A stretch of 64,000 bases of DNA from Escherichia coli (GTDB taxonomy: Bacteria; Pseudomonadota; Gammaproteobacteria; Enterobacterales; Enterobacteriaceae), in the NCBI RefSeq assembly GCF_013315695.1, contig NZ_CP054353.1; one strand, 5' to 3'. This document shows, in pieces, positions 1 through 16,646 of this stretch. A program made the translations under genes and the position numbers. The notes under the pieces were generated by a model that saw only the letters and a list, made by a program, of their open reading frames with translations, did no database searches and was not told the DNA's origin. The stretch's first letter is position 1. The number at the start of each line of letters is the position of its first letter.

Positions 1-783
1 GGCGGCGTGGAAATCGAAAAAGTGGCGGAAGAAACTCCGCACCTGATCCACAAAATTGCGCTTGATCCGCTGACTGGCCCGATGCCGTATCAGGGACGCG
101 AGCTGGCGTTCAAACTGGGTCTGGAAGGTAAACTGGTTCAGCAGTTCACCAAAATCTTCATGGGCCTGGCGACCATTTTCCTGGAGCGCGACCTGGCGCT
201 GATCGAAATCAACCCGCTGGTCATCACCAAACAGGGCGATCTGATTTGCCTCGACGGCAAACTGGGCGCTGATGGCAACGCACTGTTCCGCCAGCCTGAT
301 CTGCGCGAAATGCGTGACCAGTCGCAGGAAGATCCGCGTGAAGCACAGGCTGCACAGTGGGAACTGAACTACGTTGCGCTGGACGGTAACATCGGTTGTA
401 TGGTTAACGGCGCAGGCCTGGCGATGGGCACCATGGACATCGTTAAACTGCACGGCGGCGAACCAGCTAACTTCCTGGACGTTGGCGGCGGCGCAACCAA
501 AGAGCGCGTAACCGAAGCGTTCAAAATCATCCTCTCTGACGACAAAGTGAAAGCCGTTCTGGTTAACATCTTCGGCGGTATCGTTCGTTGCGACCTGATC
601 GCTGACGGTATCATCGGCGCGGTAGCGGAAGTGGGTGTTAACGTACCGGTCGTGGTACGTCTGGAAGGTAACAACGCCGAACTCGGCGCGAAGAAACTGG
701 CTGACAGCGGCCTGAATATTATTGCAGCAAAAGGTCTGACGGATGCAGCTCAGCAGGTTGTTGCCGCAGTGGAGGGGAAATAA
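1..783 (+). CDS. sucC: succinyl-CoA synthetase beta subunit, C-terminal part (5' end outside window)
   Basis: ORF open to window edge; translation matches the CoA-ligase C-terminal region of SucC; stop overlaps the sucD start (TAATG). Confidence 0.95.
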
Positions 784-1652
784 TGTCCATTTTAATTGAT
801 AAAAACACCAAGGTTATCTGCCAGGGCTTTACCGGTAGCCAGGGGACTTTCCACTCAGAACAGGCTATTGCATACGGCACTAAAATGGTTGGCGGCGTAA
901 CCCCAGGTAAAGGCGGCACCACCCACCTCGGCCTGCCGGTGTTCAACACCGTGCGTGAAGCTGTTGCTGCTACTGGCGCTACCGCTTCTGTTATCTACGT
1001 ACCAGCACCGTTCTGCAAAGACTCCATTCTGGAAGCTATTGATGCAGGCATCAAACTGATTATCACCATCACTGAAGGCATCCCGACGCTGGATATGCTG
1101 ACCGTGAAGGTGAAACTGGATGAAGCGGGCGTTCGCATGATCGGCCCGAACTGCCCGGGCGTTATCACTCCGGGTGAATGCAAAATCGGTATCCAGCCTG
1201 GTCACATTCACAAACCGGGTAAAGTGGGTATCGTTTCCCGTTCCGGTACACTGACCTATGAAGCGGTTAAACAGACCACGGATTACGGTTTCGGTCAGTC
1301 GACCTGTGTTGGTATCGGCGGCGACCCGATCCCTGGCTCTAACTTTATCGACATCCTCGAAATGTTCGAAAAAGATCCGCAGACCGAAGCGATCGTGATG
1401 ATCGGTGAGATCGGCGGTAGCGCTGAAGAAGAAGCGGCTGCGTACATCAAAGAGCACGTTACCAAGCCTGTTGTGGGTTACATCGCTGGTGTGACTGCGC
1501 CGAAAGGCAAACGTATGGGCCACGCGGGTGCCATCATTGCCGGTGGGAAAGGGACTGCGGATGAGAAATTTGCTGCTCTGGAAGCCGCAGGCGTGAAAAC
1601 CGTTCGCAGCCTGGCTGATATCGGTGAAGCACTGAAAACTGTTCTGAAATAA
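783..1652 (+). CDS. sucD: succinyl-CoA synthetase alpha subunit
   Basis: 289 aa; CoA-binding N-terminus [28 protein letters not shown] and phospho-His loop region; translationally coupled to sucC. Confidence 0.97.
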
Positions 1653-1752
1653 ATATCTGTAATAAGAAATAGCCCTCGCCGCTTCCCTCTACAGGAATGG
1701 CGAAGGGCTGTCGGTTTCGACATGGTTGGCCATCATATGATGGCCTTTTTTA
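1653..1752 (+). ncRNA. sdhX: 3'UTR-derived sRNA of the sdh-suc transcript (SdhX/RybD-like), ending at the sucD terminator
   Basis: Position immediately downstream of the sucD stop, two consecutive hairpins, the second followed by a T-run; assignment rests on recalled K-12 biology, exact 5' end not determinable from sequence. Confidence 0.5.
1728..1751 (+). terminator. rho-independent terminator of the sdh-suc operon
   Basis: Perfect palindrome ggccatcatatgatggcc followed by tttttt. Confidence 0.75.
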
Positions 1753-1857
1753 TTCGGGCACTAATCTGAAAAGTTTGCCCACTGCTTTTTTTCCCCATCC
1801 TCTGCGCAATAATGCCCGGCGAAATATCTCCTCTCCGTTCTGTAAAAGGATTTATAC

Positions 1858-3051
1858 ATGAAGAAAATTGTTCTGCCGGTTGCTCTGGCCCTGATGGGTA
1901 TAAATGCGGACGTTTATGCGGCCGATGTAAAGATCGATATTTTAAGTGCAACAGTGAAAGATAAACGCATTGAGGGGGCATCGGTGACGCTGCAACGCAA
2001 TGGCGCACAATCTGTTTCTGGCACCACAAATGCCTCGGGCAGCATTAATCTGGGCTCTTCCTTTGCCGATGATCAAGATGCTTTGTTAATCGTCAAAAAA
2101 GAGGGCTATTCTAATCTGGTGGTCAAATGCCCGTGTGCGGGCATGACTTATGCGATTAGTCCGGTAATGACTAGTCTGGATGGCATGCGTGTCGTATTGA
2201 GCTGGGGCGAAAAGCCTTTTGATCTTGATTCGCATTTGATCTTCCCTGGCGGACATATTTATTTTGATAGTAAAGAGGGGACTGATGCCAATCTGGATGT
2301 TGATGATACGGATAGCTATGGACCAGAAACTGTCACTATCAGCAAAAAGCATTTTGGCGAAAGTTACATCTATGCCGTGCAGGACTATAGCAATAAAGGG
2401 TTGCCCAACAGTAATTATCTCTCTGCCAGTAAGGCAAAAGTGTTTGTTTATGTAGGGGGCTCCCTGGTGCGTAGTTATAGTGTCCCTGCTGGAAAACGAG
2501 GGAACATCTGGACCGTGTTTAAACTCAATCCAAACGGCGAGTTTGAAGATATCAACTCTGTTACCACCGCCAATTTTAACGACACCACATTAGGCGTCAG
2601 GGATTTAGCCACTGTGATAATGCCTGCGACGGGTTCTTCAACTCCGGCTTCACCTGCGATGCAAAACAGTGGATATACTCAACTGGCAAGAAAATATAAT
2701 CGTGAAGGCGAAGCTGTTTACAAAACCGGTCAACTTGAGCAAGCCATTCAACTCTTCCAACAGGCAACAGAATTAGACGGCAATTACGGTCAGGCATTTA
2801 GTAACCTGGGTCTGGCTTATCAGAAAAATGGCAACATCGCGGAAGCGATTTGGGCAAATCGTAAAGCGATCTCGTTAGCCAGTGGAGCAAATGCGGCGAC
2901 AACGCGCGCTAACTCCTATTATAACATTGCCAAAATTTATGAAACTGCAGGACAGAACGCTGATGCATTGCAGCATTATCAACTCGCTTATGCGGAAAAA
3001 AATAAGCCCTCTTATGAAGAGGCCATCGCACGGGTAAAAGCGAAAATGTAG
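1858..3051 (+). CDS. exported protein of unknown function with C-terminal TPR repeats (middle region resembles a YfaP/DUF2135-like domain)
   Basis: 397 aa; N-terminal signal peptide MKKIVLPVALALMGINADVYAA; AAGGA RBS upstream; C-terminal TPR-like repeats; absent from the K-12 sucD-cydA interval as I recall it. Confidence 0.7.
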   Translation: MKKIVLPVALALMGINADVYAADVKIDILSATVKDKRIEGASVTLQRNGAQSVSGTTNASGSINLGSSFADDQDALLIVKKEGYSNLVVKCPCAGMTYAISPVMTSLDGMRVVLSWGEKPFDLDSHLIFPGGHIYFDSKEGTDANLDVDDTDSYGPETVTISKKHFGESYIYAVQDYSNKGLPNSNYLSASKAKVFVYVGGSLVRSYSVPAGKRGNIWTVFKLNPNGEFEDINSVTTANFNDTTLGVRDLATVIMPATGSSTPASPAMQNSGYTQLARKYNREGEAVYKTGQLEQAIQLFQQATELDGNYGQAFSNLGLAYQKNGNIAEAIWANRKAISLASGANAATTRANSYYNIAKIYETAGQNADALQHYQLAYAEKNKPSYEEAIARVKAKM

Positions 3052-3428
3052 CGGTTAGCAAACAGGAGGCTATGTGGTGTTAGCCTCCTTACCCCCAGGC
3101 CAGTGGGAATATAGTAATCATCGTTTTTAACATTCAACGTCCAGATTCTGCTTGAGCGTAAAAACAAGTCTTTAGATATTTTATAAATGATGAAGGGCTG
3201 GAAAGTGGTTGATGTCACCGACTCACGATCGTTATCGCCAGCAAAGCTTTTTTGCCATTGCACCAGACGCACCTTCAACCATTTTGGCGACGAATCAACT
3301 GCTACCGCCACCAGGCTTGTTTGCCATTTTCCCGTACCTAATTCGTCGCTTGCCGCACTGTTGGCTGTAATCAATGGCCCAATGCCCAACCAGATACTTC
3401 TATATCCGATTGGGTTTTGTTAATTGCG

Positions 3429-4025
3429 TTACCCCTTAAACGTTAACCTCGGTCGAAATCTGACCGCTGGCTGAATTAATCCGGCTTCTTGTTGGGCTTC
3501 GATAACCGGACCAATATCTTTATAAGCAGCTGGCGCTTCTTCAATACGCCGTTCTTCGCGCAATGTGACGCATTGCCACGGCAACGTTGACTCTGCAGTC
3601 GCGCGTGAGCGCATGGCCTGCCGACGCTGGCTGCGTCCTGCTCCGTGACTGCAAGACCACAGCCACTCCGGGTTGCCGCAACCAACCGCAAGCCAGGAAT
3701 AATCACCCATGGAACCGGGGATTAACGCCAGATCGCCCGCGCGTGCCGGTGTTGTGGCCACCACAGCGCCAACGGGGACGCCATTGCCGGGATGAAAATC
3801 TGGCGTCGCGCACGTCTGGCGCACATAACCTGGGTGGTCTGGTAGCTTCACTTCTGCAAAATCAAGCAGTTGTGTTACTGCTTTTTCTTCCAGCGGCAGT
3901 TCGTCCGGCAGCAGTACGCGGGCACTGGCACCTGATGGACGAGATAATGAAACAATATTGTTGGCGCGGGAAAGTTGGATCCCTTTGCGCAGAAAGGCTT
4001 TATCAAGCCTTGAAAGATGATGCAT
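3429..4025 (-). CDS. RtcB-family (RNA 3'-phosphate ligase) C-terminal domain protein; probably a truncated remnant
   Basis: 198 aa containing the RtcB C-terminal hallmarks PGSMG, SHGAGR and EAPAAYKDI...RP...KG; the N-terminal metal-binding half of the family is missing. Confidence 0.55.
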   Translation of the reverse strand: MHHLSRLDKAFLRKGIQLSRANNIVSLSRPSGASARVLLPDELPLEEKAVTQLLDFAEVKLPDHPGYVRQTCATPDFHPGNGVPVGAVVATTPARAGDLALIPGSMGDYSWLAVGCGNPEWLWSCSHGAGRSQRRQAMRSRATAESTLPWQCVTLREERRIEEAPAAYKDIGPVIEAQQEAGLIQPAVRFRPRLTFKG

Positions 4026-4276
4026 AACGCTGTCCTGAAATATAGACGTTAAACAACCCCCTGTATTGCGAGGGTAATTTTGTCTTTCCGGTCAGCAGCC
4101 AGCAAAAGGGAAAGAAAACGCGCGTAGTGTATGTGGCGATAGCAAGTTTTACAAGTGGTAAATCTGGCTTATTGTTAAAGAGGAATTATCTTTTGTGAAG
4201 TCTTTTAAGGCCATGACTCATTCAATTTAACCGGACATAGATAATATATAACATAGGGTATATAAATTTATCATTG

Positions 4277-4405
4277 TATACTTGTCATAATTCAAGTTGC
4301 ATGTGCTGCATCGATGTTCGCTCACCCAGGTCACTTACTTATGTAAGTTTCTGGAAATTCATTATTTGTTCCCTTCCTGCAACTTGACTTATTTAGAGTA
4401 TATTC
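4277..4405. repeat. ERIC/IRU intergenic repeat, degenerate copy
   Basis: Contains ttcaagttgcatgtgctgc and cgctcacccaggtcacttacttatgtaag; about 80% identical to the copy at 49934-50062, which matches the ERIC1R/ERIC2 primer sequences. Confidence 0.8.
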
Positions 4406-4614
4406 ATGTATATGAATAATATTCTTGCAATAATAGCTTTAAAGTATTGCATGCGGATAACTGAGGTGAAATTCCTGTTTTAGGATTATTGTCACTTTAT
4501 TTTCCTGGTTAGACATATAGCTGACTGGTTTGTTTATTTGAATTATGATATTCATTAGTGCTACTGTTTTTTATAAAATAATTTTTGAATTGTTATTTTT
4601 TCACGGACGGCATT

Positions 4615-5520
4615 ATGCGAGGAAAAATACCTAAAACGGAACTGCTGGTGACTTTTGAGGTCGTCGCACGTCATGAAAGTTATACCAGAGCGGCAGAGGA
4701 GTTAGCGTTAACCCAAAGTGCAGTATTCAGACAAGTAAGTGCGCTGGAGGAATTTTTACATACTCCGTTATTTTCACACTCTAAAAAACGCATTTTTCTT
4801 AATGATGCAGGGAAGTATTACCTGGGGATAGTAAAAGAAACATTAAATAAGCTGGAACGCGATACCAATACCATTATGACCTGGCAGCCTACGGTTCAGG
4901 TTATTGAACTTGCCGTTAATCCTACTTTTAGTACCCACTGGTTAATCCCAAATTTACATGAATTCACAAAGTTACATCCCGATATTATTGTTAATATTCA
5001 TTCTTTAGCTAATAACGGCGACTTTCTTAATCGGGAGTACGATGCTGTCATTATGCGCGAAAATTTTTGCGCGCCCTGGGCGGAAGTAGAGTATCTCTTT
5101 GAAGAGGAGATTTTGCCGGTATGCAGCGGCAGTTTGCTTGCAATGTCCGATCAAAAACTGTCAGTGGCAGAACTGCTTACTGAGTTACCACTTCTGCATC
5201 AAAGCACCCGTATTACTGGCTGGGAAGAGTGGTTTGCTTTATCTGGCGTTAGCAGTCCGCTGGTCAATAACGGACCACGTTTCGATTTGCTTTCAATGCT
5301 GATTGCCGCCGTGCGCTCTAATCTCGGCGTGGCGCTGTTACCACGGTTCGCTATTCAACATGATTTGGATAGTGGCGATATGGTGATTCCCTGTGATGTG
5401 CCTATTCGTACCGGTAATCGTTTTATTATGACGTGGCAGGAAGAGAAGTCTGACTCACCGCACTTGCAGCAATTTCGTGAATGGTTGCTGGCGAAATCGG
5501 TCGTACCGCAGGAGATGTAA
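4615..5520 (+). CDS. LysR-family transcriptional regulator
   Basis: N-terminal HTH (ESYTRAAEELALTQSAVFRQVSALE) plus substrate-binding domain; ATG at 4615 preferred over the TTG-extended ORF at 4585. Confidence 0.85.
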   Translation: MRGKIPKTELLVTFEVVARHESYTRAAEELALTQSAVFRQVSALEEFLHTPLFSHSKKRIFLNDAGKYYLGIVKETLNKLERDTNTIMTWQPTVQVIELAVNPTFSTHWLIPNLHEFTKLHPDIIVNIHSLANNGDFLNREYDAVIMRENFCAPWAEVEYLFEEEILPVCSGSLLAMSDQKLSVAELLTELPLLHQSTRITGWEEWFALSGVSSPLVNNGPRFDLLSMLIAAVRSNLGVALLPRFAIQHDLDSGDMVIPCDVPIRTGNRFIMTWQEEKSDSPHLQQFREWLLAKSVVPQEM

Positions 5521-5523
5521 AAC

Positions 5524-5550
5524 CTGCGCCTGGCGGGATGCCAGGCGCAG
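5524..5550. terminator. bidirectional hairpin between the convergent LysR and adenosyltransferase genes
   Basis: 10-bp perfect stem ctgcgcctgg / ccaggcgcag with 7-nt loop. Confidence 0.6.
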
Positions 5551-5553
5551 TTA

Positions 5554-6156
5554 TTACCAGTCGATACCCGGCTGGGCCTGAATGCCGTTATCAAAAGCAT
5601 GTTTGACGGGGCGGATTTCGCTTACCGTATCCGCCATTTTTAATATCTGACTGTGGCAACCGCGTCCGGTGACAATGACACTTTGTTGTGCCGGGCGGTT
5701 TTGCAGAGAAGCGATCACTTCTTCGGTGTCCAGATAATGGTAAGCCAGCATATAGGTCAGCTCATCAAGCACCACTAAGTCGTAACGCTTGTCAGCCAGC
5801 ATCCGTTTGCTTTCCGACCAGACCTCTTTCGCCGCGTCGATATCCGCTTGCCGGTTCTGTGTCTCCCAGGTAAAACCGGTTCCCATAATATGAAACTCAA
5901 CCCCCAGCGGCTGGAGAAGGTTGTATTCGCCGTTGTCCCATTGCCCCTTGATGTACTGCGCAACCCCCACCGTTTTGCCATGACCCACCGCGCGCGTCAC
6001 AGTACCAAACGCGGCAGTGGATTTCCCTTTGCCGTTGCCGGTGAAAACAATCAAGATCCCTTTTTTCTCTATCGCCGCCGCGACGCGCGTATCGACCTGT
6101 TCCTTCAATTTCTGCTGGCGCTGCACATGCCGTTCAGTTGAAATTCGCGCTTCCAT
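5554..6156 (-). CDS. ATP:cob(I)alamin adenosyltransferase (CobA/BtuR family), second copy
   Basis: 200 aa; P-loop VFTGNGKGKSTAAFG; near-colinear with E. coli BtuR as recalled. Confidence 0.85.
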   Translation of the reverse strand: MEARISTERHVQRQQKLKEQVDTRVAAAIEKKGILIVFTGNGKGKSTAAFGTVTRAVGHGKTVGVAQYIKGQWDNGEYNLLQPLGVEFHIMGTGFTWETQNRQADIDAAKEVWSESKRMLADKRYDLVVLDELTYMLAYHYLDTEEVIASLQNRPAQQSVIVTGRGCHSQILKMADTVSEIRPVKHAFDNGIQAQPGIDW

Positions 6157-6165
6157 TCATTTTCC

Positions 6166-7818
6166 TTAATGTCCCGCAGGGCAACTGGCGCAGCGGTGTT
6201 TCTGCTCAAACTGACTAAAGAAATTATTGCCTTTATCATCTACCAGGATGAATGCGGGTAAATTTTCCACTTCCATCATCCACACCGCTTCCATACCCAG
6301 CTCCGGGTATTCCAGGCAACGCAGACTTTTGACATATTCTTGCGCCAGTAACGCAGCTGCACCGCCAATACTTCCCAGATTGAAGCCGCCATGTTTGTGA
6401 CAGGCATCGGTGACCTGCTGGCTGCGGTTACCTTTCGATAACATCACCAGACTGCCGCCAGCCGCCTGGAAGGTATCGACATAACCGTCCATTCGACCGC
6501 CCGTGGTTGGACCCAGTGAACCGCAGGCCATGTTCTCCGGTGTTTTCGCCGGGCCAGCGTAATAGACAATATGATGCTTCAGGTAATCCGGCATCGGTTC
6601 GCCGCTATCCAGCCGCGCTTTTATTTTGGCGTGGGCGATATCGCGCGCCACTACGATGGGACCACTTAACGACACGCGGGTGCCTACCGGTAATCTGGCG
6701 AGATCCTGCATCACGTCACGCAACGGACGATTTAGATCCAGCTGTACATGTTGCGCGTGATTTTCTTCCCGCAGTGAGGCTGGAATATATTGCCCCGGAT
6801 TGTGTTCGAGTTTTTCCAGCCAGATACCGTGCTTGTTAATTTTTGCTTTGATATTGCGATCCGCAGAACAGGAGAGCGTCATAGCTATCGGGCAAGAGCC
6901 ACCGTGACGCGGCAGACGAATGACGCGAATATCATGAGCGAAATATTTACCCCCAAATTGCGCACCAATACCAAATTGCTGACTGGCCTCGAGCAATACT
7001 TTTTCCAGCTCAATATCACGGAATGCTTGTCCTTGCTCGTTTCCGCTGGTGGGCAAATTGTCGTAATATTTCGTTGAGGCCAGCTTGGCAACTTTTAAGG
7101 TTTGATCGGCTGAAAGCCCTCCGACGACAAAGGCGATGTGGTAAGGCGGGCAGGCAGCGGTGCCCAGCGATTTCATTTTTTCGATTAAAAATGCGGTCAG
7201 TTTTTCTGGTTGCAATAGGGATTGGGTTTCCTGATAAAGCGCGGCTTTATTGGCAGAGCCGCCCCCTTTATTAATACAGAGAAAATGGTACTCATCACCA
7301 GCGACGGCGCTGATATCAATCTGCGCCGGGAGATTGGTTTGCGTATTGACTTCGGTAAACATATCCAGTGGCGCATTTTGTGAAAAGCGCAGATTATTTT
7401 CCTGAAAAGTGGTGTAAATGCCTTTGCTTAAGGCTTCAGCGTCGTTACCTCCGGTCCATATCTGTTGCCCTTTACTGGCAACAATAGTTGCGGTGCCGGT
7501 ATCCTGACAGTTGGGTAATACCCCTTTTGCTGAGACTTCAGCATTACGTAATAACTGCAACGCAACGTATTTATCATTACTACTGGCGTGCGGATCGTTA
7601 AGAATGCTGGCGACCTGTTGCAAATGAGCGGAACGTAAGAAAAAAGAGGCTTCATAAAATGCCTGCCGGGCAAGCAGCGTTAATGCTTCAGGAGCGATTT
7701 TTATCACTTCTTCGCCGTCTAATTCCGTTACTGTAATATGTTGATCGCTAATTAATGTATATTCTGTACCGTCTTTATTTTGTAGAAACGGTTCTTGCCA
7801 GATAAATGGTTTGGACAT
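6166..7818 (-). CDS. fumD: class I (Fe-S) fumarate hydratase family; probable mesaconase/fumarase FumD
   Basis: 550 aa, FumA/FumB-like length and N-terminus ([11 protein letters not shown]...); lies in the methylaspartate operon. Confidence 0.8.
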
Positions 7819-7925
7819 ATTTCACTTTTCACCTTAAACGTTAGTTTTACTTAATTGCCGTCTAACTTCATGATCCGGCTTATAAAAATGCGTAGTCATT
7901 GGCTTCTGATTGCTTAAGATCCCCC

Positions 7926-9206
7926 TCAGGGCAGAGCAACGTTCGATTCATTGGGTTTTAATGCTTTACCCCGACAGCCCTCGCCGAAATGTTCGCCTTC
8001 CCACCGACTCACCATCGCAGCGCCCATTGCGTTGCTCATGACGTTTGTCGCGGAACGCCCCATATCAAGGAACGGATCAACGCCCATCAGCAAGATCAGC
8101 CCCGCTTCCGGAATATTGAACTGGTTGAGCGTGGCGGCGATAACCACCATTGAGGCGCGTGGTACGCCAGCCATTCCTTTCGAGGTCAACATCAGGATCA
8201 ACAGCATGGTGATTTGCTCACCGATGGATAAATGGATATTGCAGGCCTGGGCGATGAAAACTGTGGCGAAGGAGCAGTAGGCCATTGATCCAACGAGATT
8301 AAATGAGTAGCCAATGGGTAAGACAAAGCTGGCAATTTTGGGGGAAACGCCAAATTGCTCCAGTTTTTCAAGCGTTCCCGGAAAAGCCGCTTCAGAACTG
8401 GATGTGGTAAATGCCAGCAGGGCGGGTTCCGAAAGGGCACGGGTCAGGCGTCTGATGCAGGGGCCGACATAAACGATGGCCAGACCGATAAGCAGCACCC
8501 AAAGTAACAACATGGTGAAATAAAATTCACCCATAAAGATCCCGGCGCTCACCATAACTGCCAGTCCTCGTTCAGCAATCAATGCTGAAATAGCGGCGAA
8601 TACGGTCAGGGGAGCGAAGAGCATGACGTAGCCAGTGAGCTTTAACATGGCATGTGCCAGCGAATCTAAGGCGTGAACGATGGCGCTGCCTTTCTCACCA
8701 ATCGCCGTCAGGCTACAGCCGAGGAAAATTGAGAACACCACGATTTGCAAAATTTCATTGTGCGCCATGGCATCGACAATGCTGGTGGGGAAAGCATGCG
8801 AAATAAATACTTTTAGTGTAAAGGGTTCTGACGCGACCACTCCGGTGGTTTCGGCACCGTGTGCAACAAAATTAATTCCTGTGCCTGGCATGAAGAAATT
8901 TACCGTTATCAAGCCTAAGGCAATTGACAGCAATGAGGCGCAAATAAATAAAAAGAGTGTTTTAGAAAAAATACGACCAAGGGCTTTGGCATCTCCCATT
9001 TTAGCTATACCTACCACCAGGGTAGAGACCACTAACGGAGCGATAATCATTTTTATCAGTCGTAAGAAAATCGTCGTGAATATCGATATTTCTTGCGCAT
9101 AGAGTTTTGCGGTTTCCGGTGAAGCAGTGTTATTGAGCACTACGCCGATAATCATTCCAAGTACCAGCGCCAAAAGAATCATCGTGGTTAAACTTATTTT
9201 CTTCAT
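7926..9206 (-). CDS. DctA-like dicarboxylate/amino acid:cation symporter (DAACS family)
   Basis: Polytopic membrane protein of DctA-like length; start moved to the ATG at 9206, which is preceded by GGAGGA. Confidence 0.8.
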   Translation of the reverse strand: MKKISLTTMILLALVLGMIIGVVLNNTASPETAKLYAQEISIFTTIFLRLIKMIIAPLVVSTLVVGIAKMGDAKALGRIFSKTLFLFICASLLSIALGLITVNFFMPGTGINFVAHGAETTGVVASEPFTLKVFISHAFPTSIVDAMAHNEILQIVVFSIFLGCSLTAIGEKGSAIVHALDSLAHAMLKLTGYVMLFAPLTVFAAISALIAERGLAVMVSAGIFMGEFYFTMLLLWVLLIGLAIVYVGPCIRRLTRALSEPALLAFTTSSSEAAFPGTLEKLEQFGVSPKIASFVLPIGYSFNLVGSMAYCSFATVFIAQACNIHLSIGEQITMLLILMLTSKGMAGVPRASMVVIAATLNQFNIPEAGLILLMGVDPFLDMGRSATNVMSNAMGAAMVSRWEGEHFGEGCRGKALKPNESNVALP

Positions 9207-9251
9207 TTTTTCCTCCATCAGGTGCACGGCGATAAATCAGAATCAGGAGAA

Positions 9252-9283
9252 GTAGATGCCTGAATAGAGATTCAGGCATCTAC
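9252..9283 (-). other. intercistronic stem-loop (14-bp perfect stem, 4-nt loop) inside the operon
   Basis: gtagatgcctgaat agag attcaggcatctac; no U-run follows on the transcribed strand. Confidence 0.5.
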
Positions 9284-9366
9284 CTGCTATTACAACCTTA
9301 CAAATAGCTGAAGTGTTGAACTGCAATAAGTGACGGGATGTCAGTTGGCTAAAAGTATTCGGATTT

Positions 9367-9684
9367 TTACAAATCGAAACTCATATTTAATAAAGGTGCA
9401 TGTTGCTGTGCACCATAGACATCATTGTCACCTACATTCCCGGAGATAATATCTCGTGGCATGACGATTTTTACTGCGTTAGAAGGATCAAACCAGACAA
9501 TACGGTGAATAAAGTCAGGTTCAACATGATATAAGCGCGCAATCAGTTCTGGGGTTAATTGCCCTGATGATTTAACTCGCTCATAGTTTTCTTTCGTTTT
9601 AAATAAAATATCTAAAACCAGTTCGTAAGGTCCGGCATTTTTCGAACGAATGACTTGCGCCAGTGAGACAATTGACTGTTTCAT
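9367..9684 (-). CDS. small protein of unknown function (DUF4387/AtuB-like by recollection)
   Basis: 105 aa ORF whose start overlaps the stop of the upstream gene by 4 nt (translational coupling). Confidence 0.6.
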   Translation of the reverse strand: MKQSIVSLAQVIRSKNAGPYELVLDILFKTKENYERVKSSGQLTPELIARLYHVEPDFIHRIVWFDPSNAVKIVMPRDIISGNVGDNDVYGAQQHAPLLNMSFDL

Positions 9685-11051
9685 GCCTGAACTCCTTCTG
9701 GCGTCACCTGTTCAATATGGAAATCAAAACGCAGAGCGTCGTTGGCTTCAATCAGGTGATATATGGAAAATTCGTATACCGGCCCGCCCTGGATATCAGA
9801 AGGGGAGAACGGGAACGCCAGATTGCCTGCGGTAGCGATGCGGTTTTCATAGCCGTAGTGCAGCATGGTAGAGCGCACCAGCGAGCAAACGCTATTGGCA
9901 ATTTCCTGGGTCGGTGCAACTACATCAAGGACAATCCCCAGCTCATGCCCGGCAGTTTGCATCGGTTCATGGTCGCCCATCACCCCGTTTTTGCCGTACA
10001 GGTGGAAATTGATGCGAATGCTGTCATCGTCGAGCGACAGGTTACGCCAAACGCTGGTTTTGACTTCATCGATGATTTTATCGATCCCGGCGATCATGAT
10101 CGGGTCGCGCGTTCCTGCGATGGTCAGACAGCGGAAGCCCACCCGTCGCGCACCTTCCAGTTTCAGGGCATACGGCGTTTCTTCATGCTTAGAACCGCTG
10201 ACGTACACTTCGCCGTCATTGACCGCTTTAAATGTGCAGCCTTTCAGGTTCAACACGCCGCCAGGTCCAGGCAGGAAGTAGGGATCGGATTTCTCATACA
10301 GTGTGTGTGCAGCCGCTGACGTTTCGGTAAATTTACGCTTCGGATTAAATGTCTTCAGCGTAAAGCCGTTGTCATCAATGATGCCCATCGCACAGTCAGA
10401 GCCTGAGCCGGGCGTTGCGGCGATTGCCGCGCATTCAAGGATTTTCCCACAATGCAGCGCCAGACCTTCATCAAAGCCTTGCATGATCGGGAGCGCAGCA
10501 AAGCAGGCCGGGTCGTAAGCGCGCCCGCCCAGCACCACTTGCGCGCCTTCTTTCAGCGCCCGCTGGAAGGGTTCGATGCCCATTTGCGCGACGATATACG
10601 TACTTTCGTCAATCGCGTCGTGGGTTAACGGCGGGACAAAATCCAGCGCCGTGATTTTGCCGTTATCCAGCGCCTGGTGGACGATGGCTTTGTCAACGTC
10701 TGCCGGGATCAACGCCATCGAGAACGAGAGGTGCTCTTCCTGGGCAATCTCATGAATTATTTCTCGGCACCACTCCAGGTGTGGTGCGGCACCAGAACCG
10801 CCAGCTGTTCCGATCACCACCGGTATATTATTTTGCACGCCTGCGGTGATCATATAGCGCAGATCGCGCTTGACCCCTGCGCGATCGGTAAACGGTTTGC
10901 CTGCCCCGAGGTAGTGGGGGCCTGGATCGGAAGAGCCTGCATCAACGGCGATCAGATCGGGCGATTCTGCCATCGCTTTGCGGAAGCTCTCTTCCGGGAA
11001 TCCATACCCGAGGATTGCCGTTGGCGATAAGACTTTAAAAGAACGAGCCAT
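9681..11051 (-). CDS. DUF1446 (AtuA-like) family protein, function unknown
   Basis: 456 aa; family assignment is from memory of the N-terminal region and is unverified. Confidence 0.6.
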   Translation of the reverse strand: MARSFKVLSPTAILGYGFPEESFRKAMAESPDLIAVDAGSSDPGPHYLGAGKPFTDRAGVKRDLRYMITAGVQNNIPVVIGTAGGSGAAPHLEWCREIIHEIAQEEHLSFSMALIPADVDKAIVHQALDNGKITALDFVPPLTHDAIDESTYIVAQMGIEPFQRALKEGAQVVLGGRAYDPACFAALPIMQGFDEGLALHCGKILECAAIAATPGSGSDCAMGIIDDNGFTLKTFNPKRKFTETSAAAHTLYEKSDPYFLPGPGGVLNLKGCTFKAVNDGEVYVSGSKHEETPYALKLEGARRVGFRCLTIAGTRDPIMIAGIDKIIDEVKTSVWRNLSLDDDSIRINFHLYGKNGVMGDHEPMQTAGHELGIVLDVVAPTQEIANSVCSLVRSTMLHYGYENRIATAGNLAFPFSPSDIQGGPVYEFSIYHLIEANDALRFDFHIEQVTPEGVQA

Positions 11052-11054
11052 TTG

Positions 11055-12296
11055 TTAATCCTTAGCCTGCAACAGCGCGATAGTACGATTCATTTCGTTG
11101 AAGACGATATCGAGGCCTTCGTCAAAGCCCATCCCTGGCTTTACCAGCATACGCATAGGGCGAGCGGCAAGGGCGACGTGGACACAGGTGCGGGCACTGA
11201 CATCAGTTTCATTGCAGGTGCCGCCCTGGTACGCTTCCATGCTGTGGCTGTTGCAGTAAAGAACCGCATCGACGATGTTGTGAATACTGCCCAGATCCGG
11301 GGTTTTGATTTGCACCATGTGACAACTGGCGGCATCAGTGAAATCAACAATATCCTGGTAGGTGTTACACCATTCATCGGCCACAATTTTCACGCCGGAA
11401 CCGAGGCGCGTCAGCTCTTTGGTAATCGCGGTCAGCAGGCGAATTTGATCGGGCTTGTTACCGGCATCGACCGGCCCTTCAATGTAGAGCGGCAGGCCTT
11501 GCGCTTCTTTTTCCAGGCTGGCGATGTATTGCGCACAGCGAAGCGGATCCATATCGAAGATCAGGCCGATAGTGCCGTATACATCGATGTGCAGGGTTGG
11601 GTGGTAGCGTGCGCTGGTGCGCTTGCTCAGAATACGATCCGACAGCCAGCGGACATATTCGCGCAGTTTTTCACCTTTAAAGCCCAGTTTCTCTTCGACG
11701 TTATTAATCAGTGCATGGGGCAGCACGTCGATGCCCTTAAGGATCATCTTATCGACGGCGATATATCGATCGTCCCCGCTCTGACCAAATAATGGAATGG
11801 ATTCCGCCACGCGTGGCAACTGCCATTCATCACAGACCACTTCAGTTTTCAGACGGCCGGTTGCCAGCGCGGTAGCATCAAGCAGCGCCTGTGATAATCC
11901 GTAGCGCACGGCGGTATGCAGCAAGTTGCCGTCAATACGCAATTTGTCGAAGAAACGGGCATTCGGCAGGAAAGCATCCACATCGCGGCCTATCAGTAAT
12001 GGCTTGATATGGTCGTTGAGGAACGGAATAAAGTGCTCAGCGAGGAACAGTGGATCGCGACCACCTGCCCCGGAATACTGTACGGCAGCACAGTCACCTA
12101 CGGCGACCGCGCCGTTTTCCAGAATCAACTGTACCGATACGCACTCCCCGGCCTGACGAACGGCGTTAAACCCCTGTGTTACCGGCTCCCCGGTATAAAA
12201 AAAGCCGTCATGACCCGCTCCGTTTTTTATCGCCTGCTGGTCATCGAAATAGAATGAGGAGTAGCCAGCAGTGAACAGAGCCTGTTTTATTTTCAT
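11055..12296 (-). CDS. mal: methylaspartate ammonia-lyase (beta-methylaspartase)
   Basis: 413 aa; N-terminus MKIKQALFTAGYSSFYFDDQQAIKNGAGHDGF matches clostridial MAL. Confidence 0.9.
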   Translation of the reverse strand: MKIKQALFTAGYSSFYFDDQQAIKNGAGHDGFFYTGEPVTQGFNAVRQAGECVSVQLILENGAVAVGDCAAVQYSGAGGRDPLFLAEHFIPFLNDHIKPLLIGRDVDAFLPNARFFDKLRIDGNLLHTAVRYGLSQALLDATALATGRLKTEVVCDEWQLPRVAESIPLFGQSGDDRYIAVDKMILKGIDVLPHALINNVEEKLGFKGEKLREYVRWLSDRILSKRTSARYHPTLHIDVYGTIGLIFDMDPLRCAQYIASLEKEAQGLPLYIEGPVDAGNKPDQIRLLTAITKELTRLGSGVKIVADEWCNTYQDIVDFTDAASCHMVQIKTPDLGSIHNIVDAVLYCNSHSMEAYQGGTCNETDVSARTCVHVALAARPMRMLVKPGMGFDEGLDIVFNEMNRTIALLQAKD

Positions 12297-13741
12297 TATG
12301 GTCTTCCTATTAATTTACTGTGGGATACAGCATTGATGTCATCTACAACCATCTGGAATGTCGGTTGGCGTCCTTCAAAGCGTGCGCGTTCCGCAACGTA
12401 ATCGTGGTGGAGGTCGAGAATATCTTTTGGCAATGGAACGGCTCCGGCTTCCAGTACGCGTATCGCGCCGGTGTTGTCACGGACCGGAAGAATTTTGCCC
12501 GCGTTGCAGGCGGCTGGCGCAAACGGCACATCCAGTACGCCCGCTTCAAATGCCAGCACCGTACCGCGCGCAATATCACCATTACCCAGTTCGAACACTT
12601 TATTCAGTACCGCGTGAACCTCGCTCTTAATCAGTTCAATTTCCAGTTCAACCGCAGGGCACGGCGGGAATTTCTGCTCGTTGACCATGTTGAGCATCTG
12701 GCGGGAGGCTTTCAGCCCCTGAATGTTGGCAGCGGCAGTCGGGATGCCCCAGGCTTCGTGCGGACTTTTGGTGATGACTTTGGTGGCACCAGACATCCCC
12801 GCGACGGCTGCGCCCCAGGAGATAATAGCGAACGCTTTCGATTCGTCTTCCGGAAAGCCGCCCATCCACTGGTGAAACACGGTACTTAATTCATAGTCGG
12901 TATAGCCATAGCTCTGAAAATATTCGTGTGCAAGTTCACGCAGAGACTGGATCGCCGCAACATCCTGCGTCAGGCTGCCGACCTGTCCATAACCAACGGT
13001 GATAGATTTCACACCCTGTTCCAGCGCCAGTAATCCTTCGATTATCGCGATAGAGTGCGAGATAAACGGCGGGATCAGGGTACCCGTTAGTGGGCCAAAC
13101 GGTTCGCGGTTGATGCGGATCCCGTGTTCTTCATACATCCCCATTAAACGGTCGCAGTACTGCCAGTCGCGGATCGATTTTTCCAGCGTTACGCGCTTGG
13201 CATACGGAATGTTGTAGGAAATGCCGCCGCCTTCATAACTGGTAAAGCCGCTGGCCATCGAGATTTCAGCCAGCAGACGCGCATCTGGCGTGCCGTGGCG
13301 GATCTGTAGCGGTTTTTGCAAAGTTTCGGTGAGGCGACGGCAAGCTGCGACGCCGTGGTTAACGACCGGTAAACCGTTCAGTTTAGAGGTTCCGGCTTCG
13401 ATGGATTTTTTAATCCCTACAGCCGCTTCTTCGTACCGATTCAGACGGGTATATGCGTCGATGGTGCTCGGCAGCAGATCGCATTCTTCTTGTAGTGTTT
13501 TCAGTAGTTCGATGTGTTCGTCCATCAGCGCCACGCCTGCGCGCGGTTGGCTAAGAGTTTTACCTTCCTTGTCTGCTTTCAGCAGGGCAAGAGAGAAGCG
13601 TTTATGCTCAGGAATGGTTTGTTGGTATTTAACGCCATCTTCAAAGTTTTCAACATCCTTGCCGGTTTCCCAGGTTTTCAGTACCTGTTGCCGCTCGGTC
13701 ATGAATTCGTCATGGGTTAATTTCTTATTTCGAAGTTCCAT
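12296..13741 (-). CDS. glmE: glutamate mutase epsilon (E) subunit
   Basis: 481 aa; N-terminus MELRNKKLTHDEFMTERQQVLKTW resembles clostridial GlmE/MutE. Confidence 0.88.
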   Translation of the reverse strand: MELRNKKLTHDEFMTERQQVLKTWETGKDVENFEDGVKYQQTIPEHKRFSLALLKADKEGKTLSQPRAGVALMDEHIELLKTLQEECDLLPSTIDAYTRLNRYEEAAVGIKKSIEAGTSKLNGLPVVNHGVAACRRLTETLQKPLQIRHGTPDARLLAEISMASGFTSYEGGGISYNIPYAKRVTLEKSIRDWQYCDRLMGMYEEHGIRINREPFGPLTGTLIPPFISHSIAIIEGLLALEQGVKSITVGYGQVGSLTQDVAAIQSLRELAHEYFQSYGYTDYELSTVFHQWMGGFPEDESKAFAIISWGAAVAGMSGATKVITKSPHEAWGIPTAAANIQGLKASRQMLNMVNEQKFPPCPAVELEIELIKSEVHAVLNKVFELGNGDIARGTVLAFEAGVLDVPFAPAACNAGKILPVRDNTGAIRVLEAGAVPLPKDILDLHHDYVAERARFEGRQPTFQMVVDDINAVSHSKLIGRP

Positions 13742-13759
13742 TGATTGCAGCCTTAATTG

Positions 13760-15148
13760 TTATAGGGTTAAGCATTGAATACTGGTGCGCGCGGCGGCCA
13801 GCGGATCGACTCTGGCGACGTTTGCCAGCAGTGGTAATAGCCCCCGGGAATCGCGGTAATATTCAAATTCGGTCGGTAAGAGAATGCGTTTACCGTCGTC
13901 GTTTAACTCGCGGTATTTCAACCAGTGATGCATATCGAACTGACTGGCACGCGAGAGCCATCCGCCGGATCCGACGACTTTACGCACGGTTGTCAGGTCA
14001 CGTCCCATCTGTAAATCGACATTGCCGACGCAGGTGCAGACCTCTTTTTTGGTGCCCGCATGTCTTTCGGTGGCATAACCCACACACAGTCCGGCCAGGA
14101 CTGTATCGAAATATTTTTCTTCTGCATTCGCGGGTAAGTAGTCGGGATGAGCGACTAGATGACGGAGGTAATGATAAAAAGCGTCCAGCTGTGCGGGTTG
14201 CTGAGCAAAATTCACATTGACTAACTCTTTCGCACTTTCACCAACCACCATTGCCGAGACGCGCATTCCCAGATCGCCTTCCACCGTCCGTTTCACGAAG
14301 GGTTCCGGTACGCCGTGTAAAACGGTGTCGGGCGAGAGCGTGTTGGCACAGGCGGAATAGACATCGGTGGTTGCGCCACCCATGTCGATCAGTATGAACT
14401 CTTTCCAGCTGTGATCGACATTACTGATTGCCTTAACCAGTTCAAAGACTGTCCACGGTGTCGGCATTGGTTCTTCGCCTGTTTTATCAACAACGACATC
14501 CAGCCCTTTCCCTTTAACGATGCGTTTAAGGAATATGTCGCAGATAGCCTGGCGTGCAGCTAAAGGGTTCGGATGGTCAAGATCGGGCAGAACGTTGTCG
14601 ACGATGGTCAGGTCTTTATGCCCTAGGATCTCCTGCACCTCGTCCTGAATATCCCGGTTTCCGGCATAAATAATGGCGCAGTCGAGTTTGGATTCTGCCA
14701 GCACACGGGCGTTATTCAGGCCGTAGCTTTCTTCTCCGCCGTCGGTGCCGCCGGTGAACAAGAGAATATCGGGCTGCGTTTCTTCCAGTGCCTGGATATC
14801 ACGGCGGTTCAGCTTGTAGGAGTAATATTGCGCAATTTTAGCCCCCGCAGAGTGAGCGGTTACTTTCGCGGTTTCCAGGGTGATAGAAGGCACCAATCCC
14901 ATTGCGGCAACCGCCAGCCCACCTTTGGCAGAGGAGGAATACTTCAATGCAACCTCACCGTTGTTAAACAGGGGGAGGGTATTATCTACGTTTAACACCA
15001 GGTTCAGGCTGGAGAAAAACCCCTTCGCCAGATGATGGGTGGTGGTTGGGGTCAGTACGTGGTTAACCAACGTTAACGCGTCCCCCTCCCGGGCGAAGAG
15101 GGCTGCTTTGGTCCACGTCGATCCAATATCGACAGAGACGATTTGCAT
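13760..15148 (-). CDS. glmL: glutamate mutase L component (MutL/GlmL)
   Basis: 462 aa, the size of clostridial GlmL; sits between the S and E subunit genes. Confidence 0.8.
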   Translation of the reverse strand: MQIVSVDIGSTWTKAALFAREGDALTLVNHVLTPTTTHHLAKGFFSSLNLVLNVDNTLPLFNNGEVALKYSSSAKGGLAVAAMGLVPSITLETAKVTAHSAGAKIAQYYSYKLNRRDIQALEETQPDILLFTGGTDGGEESYGLNNARVLAESKLDCAIIYAGNRDIQDEVQEILGHKDLTIVDNVLPDLDHPNPLAARQAICDIFLKRIVKGKGLDVVVDKTGEEPMPTPWTVFELVKAISNVDHSWKEFILIDMGGATTDVYSACANTLSPDTVLHGVPEPFVKRTVEGDLGMRVSAMVVGESAKELVNVNFAQQPAQLDAFYHYLRHLVAHPDYLPANAEEKYFDTVLAGLCVGYATERHAGTKKEVCTCVGNVDLQMGRDLTTVRKVVGSGGWLSRASQFDMHHWLKYRELNDDGKRILLPTEFEYYRDSRGLLPLLANVARVDPLAAARTSIQCLTL

Positions 15149-15597
15149 CAGATTGCCTCTTCAAGAATACGAGTATCAACGTCATGACGTTGGTTGATAT
15201 CGTGTGCCATCAGCTGACAAACATCTTCTAAGTCATGACTTGGGGCAAAGACGCGATCAAATCCCATCTCTTTGAATTTGGTTTCCACGTCAGCGAAGTC
15301 ATGTTTTCCGACCACCAGGTTACCGCCCACATAGAGCAGGATGTCCCCCAGTCCACGCTCGATGCAGCGTTCGCGCATGCCCAGACAGTCGATATCGCCA
15401 TGCCCATAGATAGAGGAGACGACAATCGCGTCAGCGCCAGTTTCAATGGCCGCATCAATATATTCGTCCTGGCTGACCATTACGCCCAGATTAATGACTC
15501 TGAAGCCATGGTTGCTAAAAACGCGGTCCAGAACTTTATTGCCTACTGCATGGCAGTCCGCGCCAATAACGCCAATCACAAGTGTTGCTTTCTTCAT
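15148..15597 (-). CDS. glmS: glutamate mutase sigma (S) subunit, cobalamin-binding
   Basis: B12-binding domain; start taken at MKKATLV (15597), preceded by AAGGA, rather than the longer ORF from 15660. Confidence 0.85.
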
Positions 15598-16143
15598 GGG
15601 TAATCCTTTGTAAGACAGAGAGTAAAATAAGTTACACACGTCGTATTTATGGCCGTTCATAACGGCACAGGTTTAATATCACAGGAGTGTCTTTATCTGA
15701 CCGTAATGTTGCAATTGATCTATTTTCAAAATGTCTTTCGGGAAATGATTGTTTAAAGTATGTTGTTAAATTCTCATGTTAATTCAGTGTGTTATGTCAA
15801 CTAATGTCATGAATGTTAAATTTTTAAAATTAACTTGATTTGGTGTATTGAGGTATTTGTGATCTACTTCTAATTTGCATTTTAGTGATATGGGTTTAGC
15901 CATGAGTAAATGCATTTCATAAAATTTAAGTCGAATTTCACTGCAATTCATCTCTGCTTAATGTAAAAATAATGTTGAAAATAACAAATGGTTAATGATT
16001 CATGCGAATTATGACCTTAGTTAGCTCTTTTGATTTTTCGTAAAAAAGAGAGGTACATGAAGGTGCTACCAGTATGAGTAACGTTAATCAAAGGTTTTAT
16101 TACGTCTGGCAATAACGCAGGCCATTTTCGCGACTGGGTGGAT

Positions 16144-16566: not shown

Positions 16567-16646
16567 TATTTAAATCTTTCCGTGAGTAATAAAAATTAAT
16601 CCCCGGGCATTGTTTAGCAATATTTGCCACAGGTAATATATAAAAA

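What the first reader, a model, noticed from the sequence alone, without database searches (positions are those of the whole stretch)
1858..3051. Exported TPR protein of unknown function at the island edge
The 397-aa protein has a clear Sec signal peptide, a central region with a W..DLD.HL...G...D..YGPE-type pattern that I associate with YfaP/DUF2135-like domains, and C-terminal TPR repeats. No function is evident. It is convergent with the RtcB-like fragment and is not part of the K-12 sucD-cydA interval as I recall it.
Basis: partly seen in the sequence, partly recalled or inferred. Interest (0 to 1): 0.4.

Follow-up and report, generated by a model that had tools for sequence, protein, structure and literature searches.

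The report
Exported TPR protein with TerD-like domain
This is a real, conserved gene for an exported three-domain protein that looks like a binding or scaffold protein of the cell envelope rather than an enzyme; its function is untested and about half of the E. coli genomes that carry it hold a damaged copy.

Summary
Window 1858-3051 (+) is an intact 397-codon gene with a Shine-Dalgarno site, under purifying selection (dN/dS 0.10 against the ST131 allele), and its structure is predicted with high confidence (pLDDT 92.7).

The protein has four parts:
- a Sec-type signal peptide without a lipobox;
- a CarboxypepD_reg-like beta-sandwich;
- a central beta-sandwich;
- three TPR repeats plus a capping helix.

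The gene is not island cargo. Pectobacterium, an Enterobacter and Pseudocitrobacter carry it at the same sucD-cydA position. It is present in 1112 of 5426 complete E. coli genomes. About half of these hold an allele that has lost the ribosome-binding site, the start codon and the 3' end.

In other proteobacteria the gene is often followed directly by an exported CE4 polysaccharide deacetylase gene. The studied YfaP relatives, MagA and MagF, are subunits of a periplasmic alpha-2-macroglobulin complex.

Most likely it is a periplasmic, probably calcium-binding adaptor for envelope enzymes. The function is inferred, not shown. Interest is modest.

The parts
1728..1755 (+). Intrinsic terminator after sucD (GGCCATCATATGATGGCC followed by a T run). 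It separates the gene from the sucABCD transcript.
1846..1850 (+). Shine-Dalgarno AAGGA, 7 nt upstream of the ATG. It is mutated to AAGCA in the degraded E. coli allele.
1858..3051 (+). Coding sequence, 397 aa plus stop. NCBI's PGAP annotation pipeline starts it at 1894 (385 aa) in the identical genome, which cuts off the signal peptide. The ATG at 1858 aligns with the start in EC958 and in Pseudocitrobacter.
1858..1920 (+). Signal peptide, residues 1-21 (MKKIVLPVALALMGINADVYA). Predicted SPase I cleavage after VYA. No lipobox.
   Evidence: In the model, helix 5-13 has pLDDT 69 and the first domain starts at residue 23.
1924..2157 (+). N-terminal beta-sandwich, residues 23-100, CarboxypepD_reg-like. 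It ends in a conserved C-P-C motif (residues 91-93, nt 2128-2136).
   Evidence: Pfam CarboxypepD_reg E 0.025 here. 8 of 12 orthologs hit it, best E 1.8e-5.
2170..2568 (+). Central beta-sandwich, residues about 105-237. It is homologous to the YfaP C-terminal domain, has the TerD fold, and carries a conserved acidic/His cluster (D122, D124, H126, H133, D147, D149, D150, E157).
   Evidence: YfaP; TerD fold; conservation; 5515 representative proteins at E <= 0.001
2569..2667 (+). Linker rich in Pro, Ser and Thr, residues 238-270, with one short predicted helix (247-257). Model confidence is lower here.
   Evidence: pLDDT 70-74
2668..3045 (+). TPR domain, residues 271-396. Seven helices form three TPR pairs plus a C-terminal capping helix (384-396).
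3064..3091 (.). 9-bp G+C-rich hairpin (GGAGGCTAT / TAGCCTCCT region) just after the stop codon, with no T run. It may act as a transcript end or stabiliser between the convergent genes.
   Evidence: MFE -18.6 kcal/mol for 3052-3105
3012..3389 (-). Context, not part of the gene. This is a remnant (125-aa ORF) of a 257-aa exported protein that lies intact and convergent next to the ortholog in Pseudocitrobacter. It overlaps the last 40 nt of the TPR gene.

Best explanation
The gene encodes a soluble protein exported by the Sec pathway to the periplasm. It is built only from binding or scaffold modules: a CarboxypepD_reg-like beta-sandwich, a TerD-fold beta-sandwich of the YfaP/MagA/MagF type with a conserved acidic cluster that probably holds calcium, and a three-repeat TPR domain of the kind that grips short peptide segments of partner proteins.

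The most likely role is a non-catalytic adaptor of the cell envelope. The TPR groove would dock a partner enzyme. The two beta-sandwiches would contact another envelope component, either a protein complex or a glycan.

In many other proteobacteria the partner is probably the exported CE4 polysaccharide deacetylase encoded directly downstream, often with overlapping stop and start codons. In E. coli no partner gene is adjacent.

What is shown: the gene is real and under selection, the domain architecture, the homology to YfaP, the TerD fold, the gene-neighbourhood pattern, and the distribution. What is inferred: export, calcium binding, the adaptor role and the identity of the partner.
For: The gene is real.
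- dN/dS is 0.10 (dS 0.27) between the window allele and the ST131 allele.
- 237 species genomes encode full-length relatives; the 80 loci kept match at 53-77% identity.
- AF2 gives pLDDT 92.7 and pTM 0.88.

Export: signal-peptide features without a lipobox, conserved in orthologs.

No catalytic domain was found in Pfam, NCBIfam or the PDB sequence search.

Central domain.
- Homologous to YfaP.
- TerD fold by Foldseek: 2qng E 1.2e-5 and 2qz7 E 7e-5, with everything else at E >= 0.01.
- The acidic cluster is at least 96% conserved for D122, D124, D147, D149 and E157.
- In a weak hhalign alignment the DLD motif aligns with TerD's DLD.

Partner gene.
- An approximately 385-aa exported CE4 deacetylase (PF01522; motifs TFDDGP, HGWEH, RPPYG, DSQDW, LFHD intact) is present in 16 of 80 genome loci from about nine genera. 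In the 13 of these where the family gene could be located among the called ORFs it lies directly downstream, and on the same strand wherever the gene itself was called.
- The same holds in 3 of 6 metagenomic lineages examined, two of them with 4-nt overlaps.

Studied relatives: P. aeruginosa MagA and MagF (COG4676, the YfaP family) are exported proteins that co-precipitate with, and are stabilised by, the periplasmic alpha-2-macroglobulin MagD (PMC3735191). This fits a protein-docking role for the domain.
Against: - No experiment bears on this protein, and no literature was found on it or on YfaP function.
- In the window, and in the other Enterobacterales loci and the Pseudomonas fluorescens-group loci examined, there is no adjacent CE4 gene. 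So the partner inference does not transfer directly to E. coli.
- The sequence-level link to TerD is not significant (hhalign probability 3.5%; no PDB profile hit). TerD's GDN(R/L)TGEGDGDDE motif is not present as such, so calcium binding is an analogy.
- Two conserved histidines (H126 92%, H133 76%), which the aligned TerD sequence lacks, could mean a different metal or even catalysis.
- About half of E. coli carriers have an allele without a ribosome-binding site, start codon or 3' end. The function is therefore dispensable in those lineages.
Confidence: 0.45

Rival explanations
1. It is an accessory subunit of a periplasmic alpha-2-macroglobulin defence complex (YfaS/Mag type or YfhM-PbpC type), acting as MagA and MagF do for MagD.
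For: - The central domain is homologous to YfaP.
- YfaP lies in the yfaA-T-S-Q-P operon with the macroglobulin gene yfaS.
- MagA and MagF (COG4676) co-precipitate with MagD.
- In Sideroxydans (L071) two tandem copies of this family plus the CE4 gene sit between a 1929-aa bacterial alpha-2-macroglobulin gene and a PbpC-type penicillin-binding protein gene.
Against: - Only 1 of 80 genome loci has a macroglobulin gene nearby. None is near the gene in the window.
- The homology covers only the C-terminal domain of YfaP (residues 141-253). The YfaP N-terminal half is absent, and the TPR and CarboxypepD_reg domains are absent from YfaP.
Confidence: 0.15
2. The beta-sandwich domains form a glycan- or surface-binding module, and the protein binds peptidoglycan or an exopolysaccharide directly as a lectin-like or structural envelope protein. 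TPR-mediated recruitment of an enzyme would not be the main point.
For: - The central domain recurs at the ends of large secreted proteins, next to PKD, CarboxypepD_reg, FG-GAP and M4 peptidase domains and type IX secretion tails. This is the typical setting of binding modules.
- The operon partner elsewhere acts on polysaccharide.
Against: - The only strong structural relatives are TerD proteins, which are not known glycan binders.
- No carbohydrate-binding family matched in Pfam.
- The TPR domain is as conserved as the rest of the protein, which argues that it is needed.
Confidence: 0.15
3. In E. coli the gene is a decaying relic with no current function.
For: - It is absent from 80% of complete genomes.
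- The 95-99% identity band holds 540 genomes. The four members checked have all lost the ribosome-binding site, the start codon and the last ~20 codons.
- One genome has an IS1 insertion in the gene.
- In the window, the DNA downstream consists of gene remnants.
Against: - The window allele and the ST131-type allele are intact, with SD and start codon, and dN/dS between them is 0.10.
- Even the truncated alleles keep an open frame, with pN/pS of 0.14-0.41.
Confidence: 0.1
4. The central domain is a metal-dependent enzyme or a metal sensor rather than a passive calcium-stabilised module.
For: D122, D124, H126, D147, D149 and E157 are conserved at 92-98%, and H133 and D150 less strongly (76% and 82%), across 168 sequences. 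The histidines are shared with YfaP but not with TerD.
Against: No similarity to any known enzyme fold or family. The coordinates of the model could not be inspected, so the geometry of the cluster is unknown.
Confidence: 0.1

Closest known systems
YfaP (E. coli b2225) and P. aeruginosa MagA/MagF (COG4676, 'DUF2135 family')
   Same: - The C-terminal beta-sandwich is homologous and carries the W..DLD.H ... LD.D..GYGPE motif (BLASTP E 4e-8; profile-profile probability 98.1%, E 8e-14).
- Both have a signal peptide and a periplasmic location (for MagA and MagF).
- JGI gives the identical E. coli protein the YfaP/DUF2135 name.
   Different: - YfaP, MagA and MagF are about 260-270 aa, with a different N-terminal half and no TPR domain.
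- They are encoded in alpha-2-macroglobulin operons. This gene is not.
- Pfam DUF2135 (48 positions) does not match this protein.
TerD family (Klebsiella TerD 2kxt; Streptomyces SCO6318 2qz7 and SAV2460 2qng)
   Different: - No significant sequence similarity.
- TerD proteins carry no signal peptide (none in the 2kxt sequence; from my own knowledge they are cytoplasmic and encoded in ter operons). This domain is exported and fused to other modules.
- TerD's calcium motif GDN(R/L)TGEGDGDDE is replaced by LDVDDTDSYGPE, and two histidines are added.
Periplasmic TPR adaptors of envelope enzymes (LpoP, and from my own knowledge NlpI and CpoB) and the TPR scaffolds of exopolysaccharide systems that work with CE4 deacetylases (PelB with PelA, PgaA with PgaB)
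   Different: - No lipobox and no outer-membrane porin domain.
- The two N-terminal beta-sandwiches have no counterpart in those proteins.
- No synthase or export genes are nearby, and no CE4 gene is adjacent in E. coli.
- The comparison with PelB and PgaA rests on my own knowledge of those systems and was not tested here.

Membership tests
TPR repeat proteins | Tandem 34-residue helix-turn-helix repeats recognised by TPR profiles | tested here: met
YfaP / COG4676 (DUF2135) family | Homology to the YfaP C-terminal domain with the DLD.H ... D.D..GYGPE motif | tested here: met
   BLASTP against K-12 YfaP E 4e-8. hhalign 96.7% probability against YfaP. hhalign 98.1%, E 8.2e-14 against a 16-member YfaP alignment.
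YfaP / COG4676 (DUF2135) family | Match to Pfam PF09906 (DUF2135) at its gathering score | tested here: not met
   No hit at E <= 1 for the protein or E <= 10 for the domain. None of the 10 sampled homologs hit it either. YfaP itself scores 66 bits over residues 199-244.
YfaP / COG4676 (DUF2135) family | Whole-protein architecture of about 260 aa, including the YfaP N-terminal half | tested here: not met
   The alignments cover only YfaP 141-253. This protein has CarboxypepD_reg-like and TPR domains instead.
YfaP / COG4676 (DUF2135) family | Encoded in an alpha-2-macroglobulin operon and physically bound to the macroglobulin | tested here: not met
   There is no macroglobulin gene near the gene in the window or in 79 of 80 ortholog loci. 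The one exception is Sideroxydans L071. Physical binding cannot be tested here.
TerD family (PF02342) | TerD beta-sandwich fold | tested here: met
TerD family (PF02342) | Sequence match to the TerD profile or sequences | tested here: not met
   No Pfam TerD hit. hhalign of the domain profile against the 2kxt sequence gives probability 3.5%. hmmsearch of the domain profile against PDB sequences finds no TerD.
TerD family (PF02342) | Calcium binding through the DLD motif and the acidic GDN(R/L)TGEGDGDDE loop | tested here: inconclusive
   DLD is present and 98% conserved. The second loop is LDVDDTDSYGPE, acidic but different.
Sec / signal peptidase I exported proteins | Basic n-region, 10-15 residue hydrophobic core, small residues at -3 and -1, no lipobox | tested here: met
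   MKK / IVLPVALALMGI / NADVYA|A. No [LVI][ASTVI][GAS]C motif. The feature is conserved in 11 orthologs. SignalP and LipoP were not available.
CarboxypepD_reg-like domain (PF13620) | Profile match for residues about 23-100 | tested here: inconclusive
   E 0.025 and 15.4 bits, below the 32.3-bit cut-off. 8 of 12 orthologs match at E <= 0.1, best 1.8e-5. The model shows a seven-strand sandwich.
TPR scaffold plus CE4 deacetylase pairs of envelope polysaccharide systems | A deacetylase gene adjacent to or co-transcribed with the TPR gene | tested here: not met
   Not present in the window (tblastn negative). YadE of K-12 is not the partner. The feature is met in 16 of 80 ortholog loci and 3 of 6 metagenome contexts.

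The most novel reading that the evidence does not exclude
The central domain represents a very large, extracytoplasmic branch of the TerD fold that Pfam does not model: 5515 representative proteins at E <= 0.001 in a 50%-identity library. This protein family and its operon-linked CE4 deacetylase would form a previously undescribed periplasmic module. The module would belong with the alpha-2-macroglobulin/PbpC type of envelope defence, for example by targeting a peptidoglycan deacetylase to protect the wall from lysozyme.
Probability: 0.15. Interest if true: 0.55.

Novelty: new variant of a known kind. Interest (0 to 1): 0.3.

Why it matters
- It gives structure and context to a gene annotated only as 'tetratricopeptide repeat protein' in more than a thousand E. 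coli genomes, including pandemic ST131.
- It ties the obscure YfaP/MagA/MagF domain to the calcium-binding TerD fold.
- It offers a testable partner (a CE4 deacetylase) and a testable setting (periplasmic macroglobulin or cell-wall systems) for a family found in at least 237 bacterial species.
- It shows that the sucD-cydA gap is an old variable site whose oldest resident is this gene.
- It exposes annotation problems. The start site is called inconsistently (385 aa in the genome identical to the window, 397 aa in EC958), and in the roughly 540 genomes of the 95-99% identity band (all four checked) a copy that has lost its start codon, ribosome-binding site and 3' end is annotated as an intact 371-aa protein.

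Tried and rejected
- Pfam and NCBIfam scans of the whole protein, of the isolated domain and of 10 diverse homologs gave nothing for the central domain.
- PDB sequence search with the full protein, and with a profile that still contained the TPR columns, returned only TPR proteins. The domain-only profile found nothing.
- The afdb50 fold library was not installed.
- A sequence-level link to TerD was sought and is not significant.
- The first alignment was too diverse for the genome scan. A 12-sequence alignment worked.
- YadE was tested as the E. coli counterpart of the CE4 partner and rejected (BLASTP E 0.37).
- A search for macroglobulin or PbpC genes in the other 79 loci found none.
- Rfam found no RNA family in window 1-6000, and the promoter scan found no sigma-70-like site on the + strand upstream.
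- Literature searches for DUF2135, YfaP and the locus gave nothing functional. Only the COG4676 search led to the Mag paper.
- The P2-like prophage annotated in the near-identical genome LR898874 is not in the window, which continues with nadA, pnuC and zitB.
- Testing whether the truncated allele is a neutral pseudogene gave an ambiguous answer.

Full report
**1. The observation**

Window 1858-3051 (+) is a 397-codon ORF. An AAGGA sits 7 nt upstream of the ATG. A strong intrinsic terminator at 1728-1755 closes the sucD transcript before it.

The identical sequence occurs in five complete E. coli genomes, annotated as 'tetratricopeptide repeat protein'. There NCBI's PGAP annotation pipeline starts the CDS 36 nt later (385 aa), which removes the signal peptide. 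In EC958 the full 397-aa form is annotated. The ATG at 1858 aligns with the start in EC958 and in Pseudocitrobacter.

The gene is under purifying selection. dN/dS is 0.10 with dS 0.27 between the window allele and the ST131 allele. AlphaFold2 models the protein with mean pLDDT 92.7 and pTM 0.88.

**2. Anatomy**

*Signal peptide.* Residues 1-21 (MKKIVLPVALALMGINADVYA) have the features of a Sec/SPase I signal and no lipobox. Eleven orthologs at 38-49% identity all carry an equivalent N-terminal hydrophobic segment. SignalP could not be run, so export is inferred from the sequence.

*N-terminal domain.* Residues 23-100 form a seven-strand sandwich. It is weakly similar to CarboxypepD_reg (E 0.025). 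Eight of 12 orthologs match that family, best E 1.8e-5. The domain ends in a conserved C-P-C motif.

*Central domain.* Residues about 105-237 form a second sandwich.

*Linker.* Residues 238-270, with lower model confidence.

**3. The central domain**

No Pfam or NCBIfam model matches it.
- BLASTP against K-12 YfaP gives E 4e-8 over 65 residues.
- The family profile against YfaP gives 96.7% probability over YfaP 141-253.
- Profile against a 16-member YfaP-family profile gives 98.1%, E 8.2e-14.

Pfam's DUF2135 model has only 48 positions and covers YfaP 199-244. JGI names the identical protein 'YfaP (DUF2135 family)'.

The motif residues R111, W116, D122, D124, H126, D147, D149, G155, P156, E157 and T158 are each conserved in at least 92% of 168 domain sequences.

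An exhaustive search of a 50%-identity library found 5515 proteins at E <= 0.001 and 3062 at E <= 1e-10. Many are large secreted proteins with PKD, CarboxypepD_reg, FG-GAP or M4 peptidase domains, or with type IX secretion tails.

**4. The fold**

A model of residues 101-245 alone (pLDDT 92.7) was searched against solved structures.
- Foldseek independently returns only TerD-family entries as significant: 2qng at E 1.2e-5 and 2qz7 at E 7.2e-5, TM 0.65-0.66.

At sequence level the link is not significant (hhalign probability 3.5%; no PDB profile hit). In that weak alignment, however, the DLD motif falls on TerD's DLD and the acidic LDVDDTDSYGPE loop falls on TerD's acidic loop.

Calcium binding is therefore an inference from fold and acidic-cluster conservation. 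Two conserved histidines absent from TerD leave room for another metal.

**5. Distribution and position**

The gene is in 1112 of 5426 complete E. coli genomes, always chromosomal. Three configurations exist.

(a) The window type, in five genomes. The order is sucD, the gene, two gene remnants, a LysR regulator and the methylaspartate-pathway genes, then cydA.

(b) An allele at 95-99% identity, a band of 540 genomes, lying alone between sucD and cydA.
- In all four strains checked it has lost the Shine-Dalgarno site (GGA to GCA), the start codon (ATG to AAG) and the last ~20 codons, including the capping helix.
- The frame is still open and pN/pS among the four is 0.14-0.41. Its status as a pseudogene is probable but not settled.

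(c) An intact allele at about 93% identity, a band of 567 genomes including ST131 strain EC958, lying between mngB and cydA.

One genome has an IS1 insertion in the gene.

Outside E. coli, full-length relatives were found in 237 species genomes; the 80 loci kept match at 53-77% identity. In Pectobacterium (three species), Enterobacter sp. BIGb0383 and Pseudocitrobacter the gene lies between sucD and cydA or the mng genes. The gene is therefore an old resident of this gap in Enterobacterales, lost from K-12 and most E. coli. It is not cargo of the neighbouring island.

**6. Gene neighbourhood elsewhere**

In 16 of the 80 fetched loci (Pseudomonas alcaligenes group, Dyella, Luteibacter, Methylovulum, Methylococcaceae, Nitrosomonadales, Oxalobacteraceae, Sideroxydans and others) the locus also holds a gene for an approximately 385-aa protein. 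In the 13 loci where the family gene could be located among the called ORFs, this gene lies directly downstream, within 0-91 nt or overlapping; in three of those only an antisense ORF over the family gene was called. It has these properties:
- a signal peptide;
- a C-terminal CE4 polysaccharide deacetylase domain (PF01522, E 1e-16);
- all five CE4 motifs visible in the sequence;
- 40-69% identity among the copies.

Three of six independent metagenomic representatives show the same pairing, two with 4-nt overlaps.

In Sideroxydans two tandem copies of the family plus the deacetylase sit between a 1929-aa bacterial alpha-2-macroglobulin and a PbpC-type penicillin-binding protein. This arrangement was not seen in the other 79 loci.

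No deacetylase gene is adjacent in the window, and YadE is unrelated to the partner.

**7. What is known about relatives**

No paper in the library mentions DUF2135, and YfaP is listed as lacking any functional assignment.

The one informative source is the study of the P. aeruginosa mag operon (PMC3735191). MagA and MagF, both COG4676 and carrying signal peptides, co-immunoprecipitate with the periplasmic alpha-2-macroglobulin MagD and with MagB. They disappear when MagD is absent. The only tested members of the domain family thus act as protein partners in a periplasmic complex.

**8. Interpretation**

All recognisable modules are binding or scaffold modules, and no enzyme similarity was found. 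I therefore propose a periplasmic, probably calcium-stabilised adaptor. The TPR groove would hold a partner, which in many lineages is the co-encoded CE4 deacetylase. The beta-sandwiches would contact another envelope component. Confidence is 0.45.

The architecture, homology, fold, distribution and synteny are shown. Export, metal binding and the adaptor role are inferred.

The rivals are:
- a macroglobulin-complex subunit (0.15);
- a direct glycan binder (0.15);
- a functionless relic in E. coli (0.1 for this intact allele);
- a metal-dependent enzyme or sensor (0.1).

**9. Verdict**

The finding is a new architectural variant built from known domain kinds, with unknown function. Interest is modest (0.3).

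Noticed in passing
window 3012-3389 (-): This 125-aa ORF, annotated 'hypothetical protein', is the middle part of a 257-aa exported protein. That protein lies intact and convergent next to the ortholog in Pseudocitrobacter (L009 5642-6415, no Pfam match). Here both ends are missing, and the ORF overlaps the last 40 nt of the TPR gene.
   Followed up: partly
window 3429-4025 (-): A 198-aa ORF with RtcB-like N- and C-terminal sequence (HGAGR motif) but about half the normal length. PGAP annotates only 336 nt of it as 'RtcB family protein'. Together with the previous item it makes the DNA right after the TPR gene a stretch of gene remnants.
   Followed up: no
window 1858 vs 1894; L002 12293; L004 4001: PGAP start sites for this gene are inconsistent: 385 aa in the genome identical to the window, 397 aa in EC958, and 371 aa in ATCC 11775-type strains. 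In the ATCC 11775-type strains the true start codon and Shine-Dalgarno site are mutated and the annotated protein lacks the signal peptide.
   Followed up: yes
L002 12257-13408; L096, L097, L098: The truncated allele (no SD, ATG to AAG, 3' deletion) keeps an open 371-codon frame in four divergent strains, with pN/pS of 0.14-0.41. That is lower than expected for a neutral pseudogene and is unexplained.
   Followed up: partly
window 1858-3051 vs L004 4001-5194: The synonymous divergence between the window allele and the ST131 allele is 0.27, to my knowledge high for a within-species comparison in E. coli. The two alleles also lie on opposite sides of the mngRAB genes. This suggests an old polymorphism or import from another species.
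   Followed up: no
window about 4585-17600: Between the remnants and cydA (18397-19965) lies a block of genes: a LysR regulator, cobO, a class I fumarate hydratase, a dicarboxylate symporter, DUF4387, AtuA-like, methylaspartate ammonia-lyase, glutamate mutase (glmE, glmL, glmS) and two hypothetical genes. This is a methylaspartate (mesaconate) pathway set. The junction with the TPR gene is shared by only 5 of 5426 complete genomes.
   Followed up: partly
L071 56-11808 (Sideroxydans MAG): The gene order is: bacterial alpha-2-macroglobulin (1929 aa), two tandem copies of the TPR/TerD-like family, a CE4 deacetylase, and a PbpC-type penicillin-binding protein. The usual macroglobulin-PbpC pair is split by the module studied here.
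   Followed up: partly
L005 4035-5036 (E. coli AHB10): An IS1B element has replaced all but the first ~250 nt of the gene in one bloodstream isolate.
   Followed up: no
window 1653-1760: Rfam at gathering thresholds reports no RNA family in the sucD 3' region, where from my own knowledge the SdhX small RNA is expected. Only the terminator hairpin at 1728-1745 was detected.
   Followed up: no
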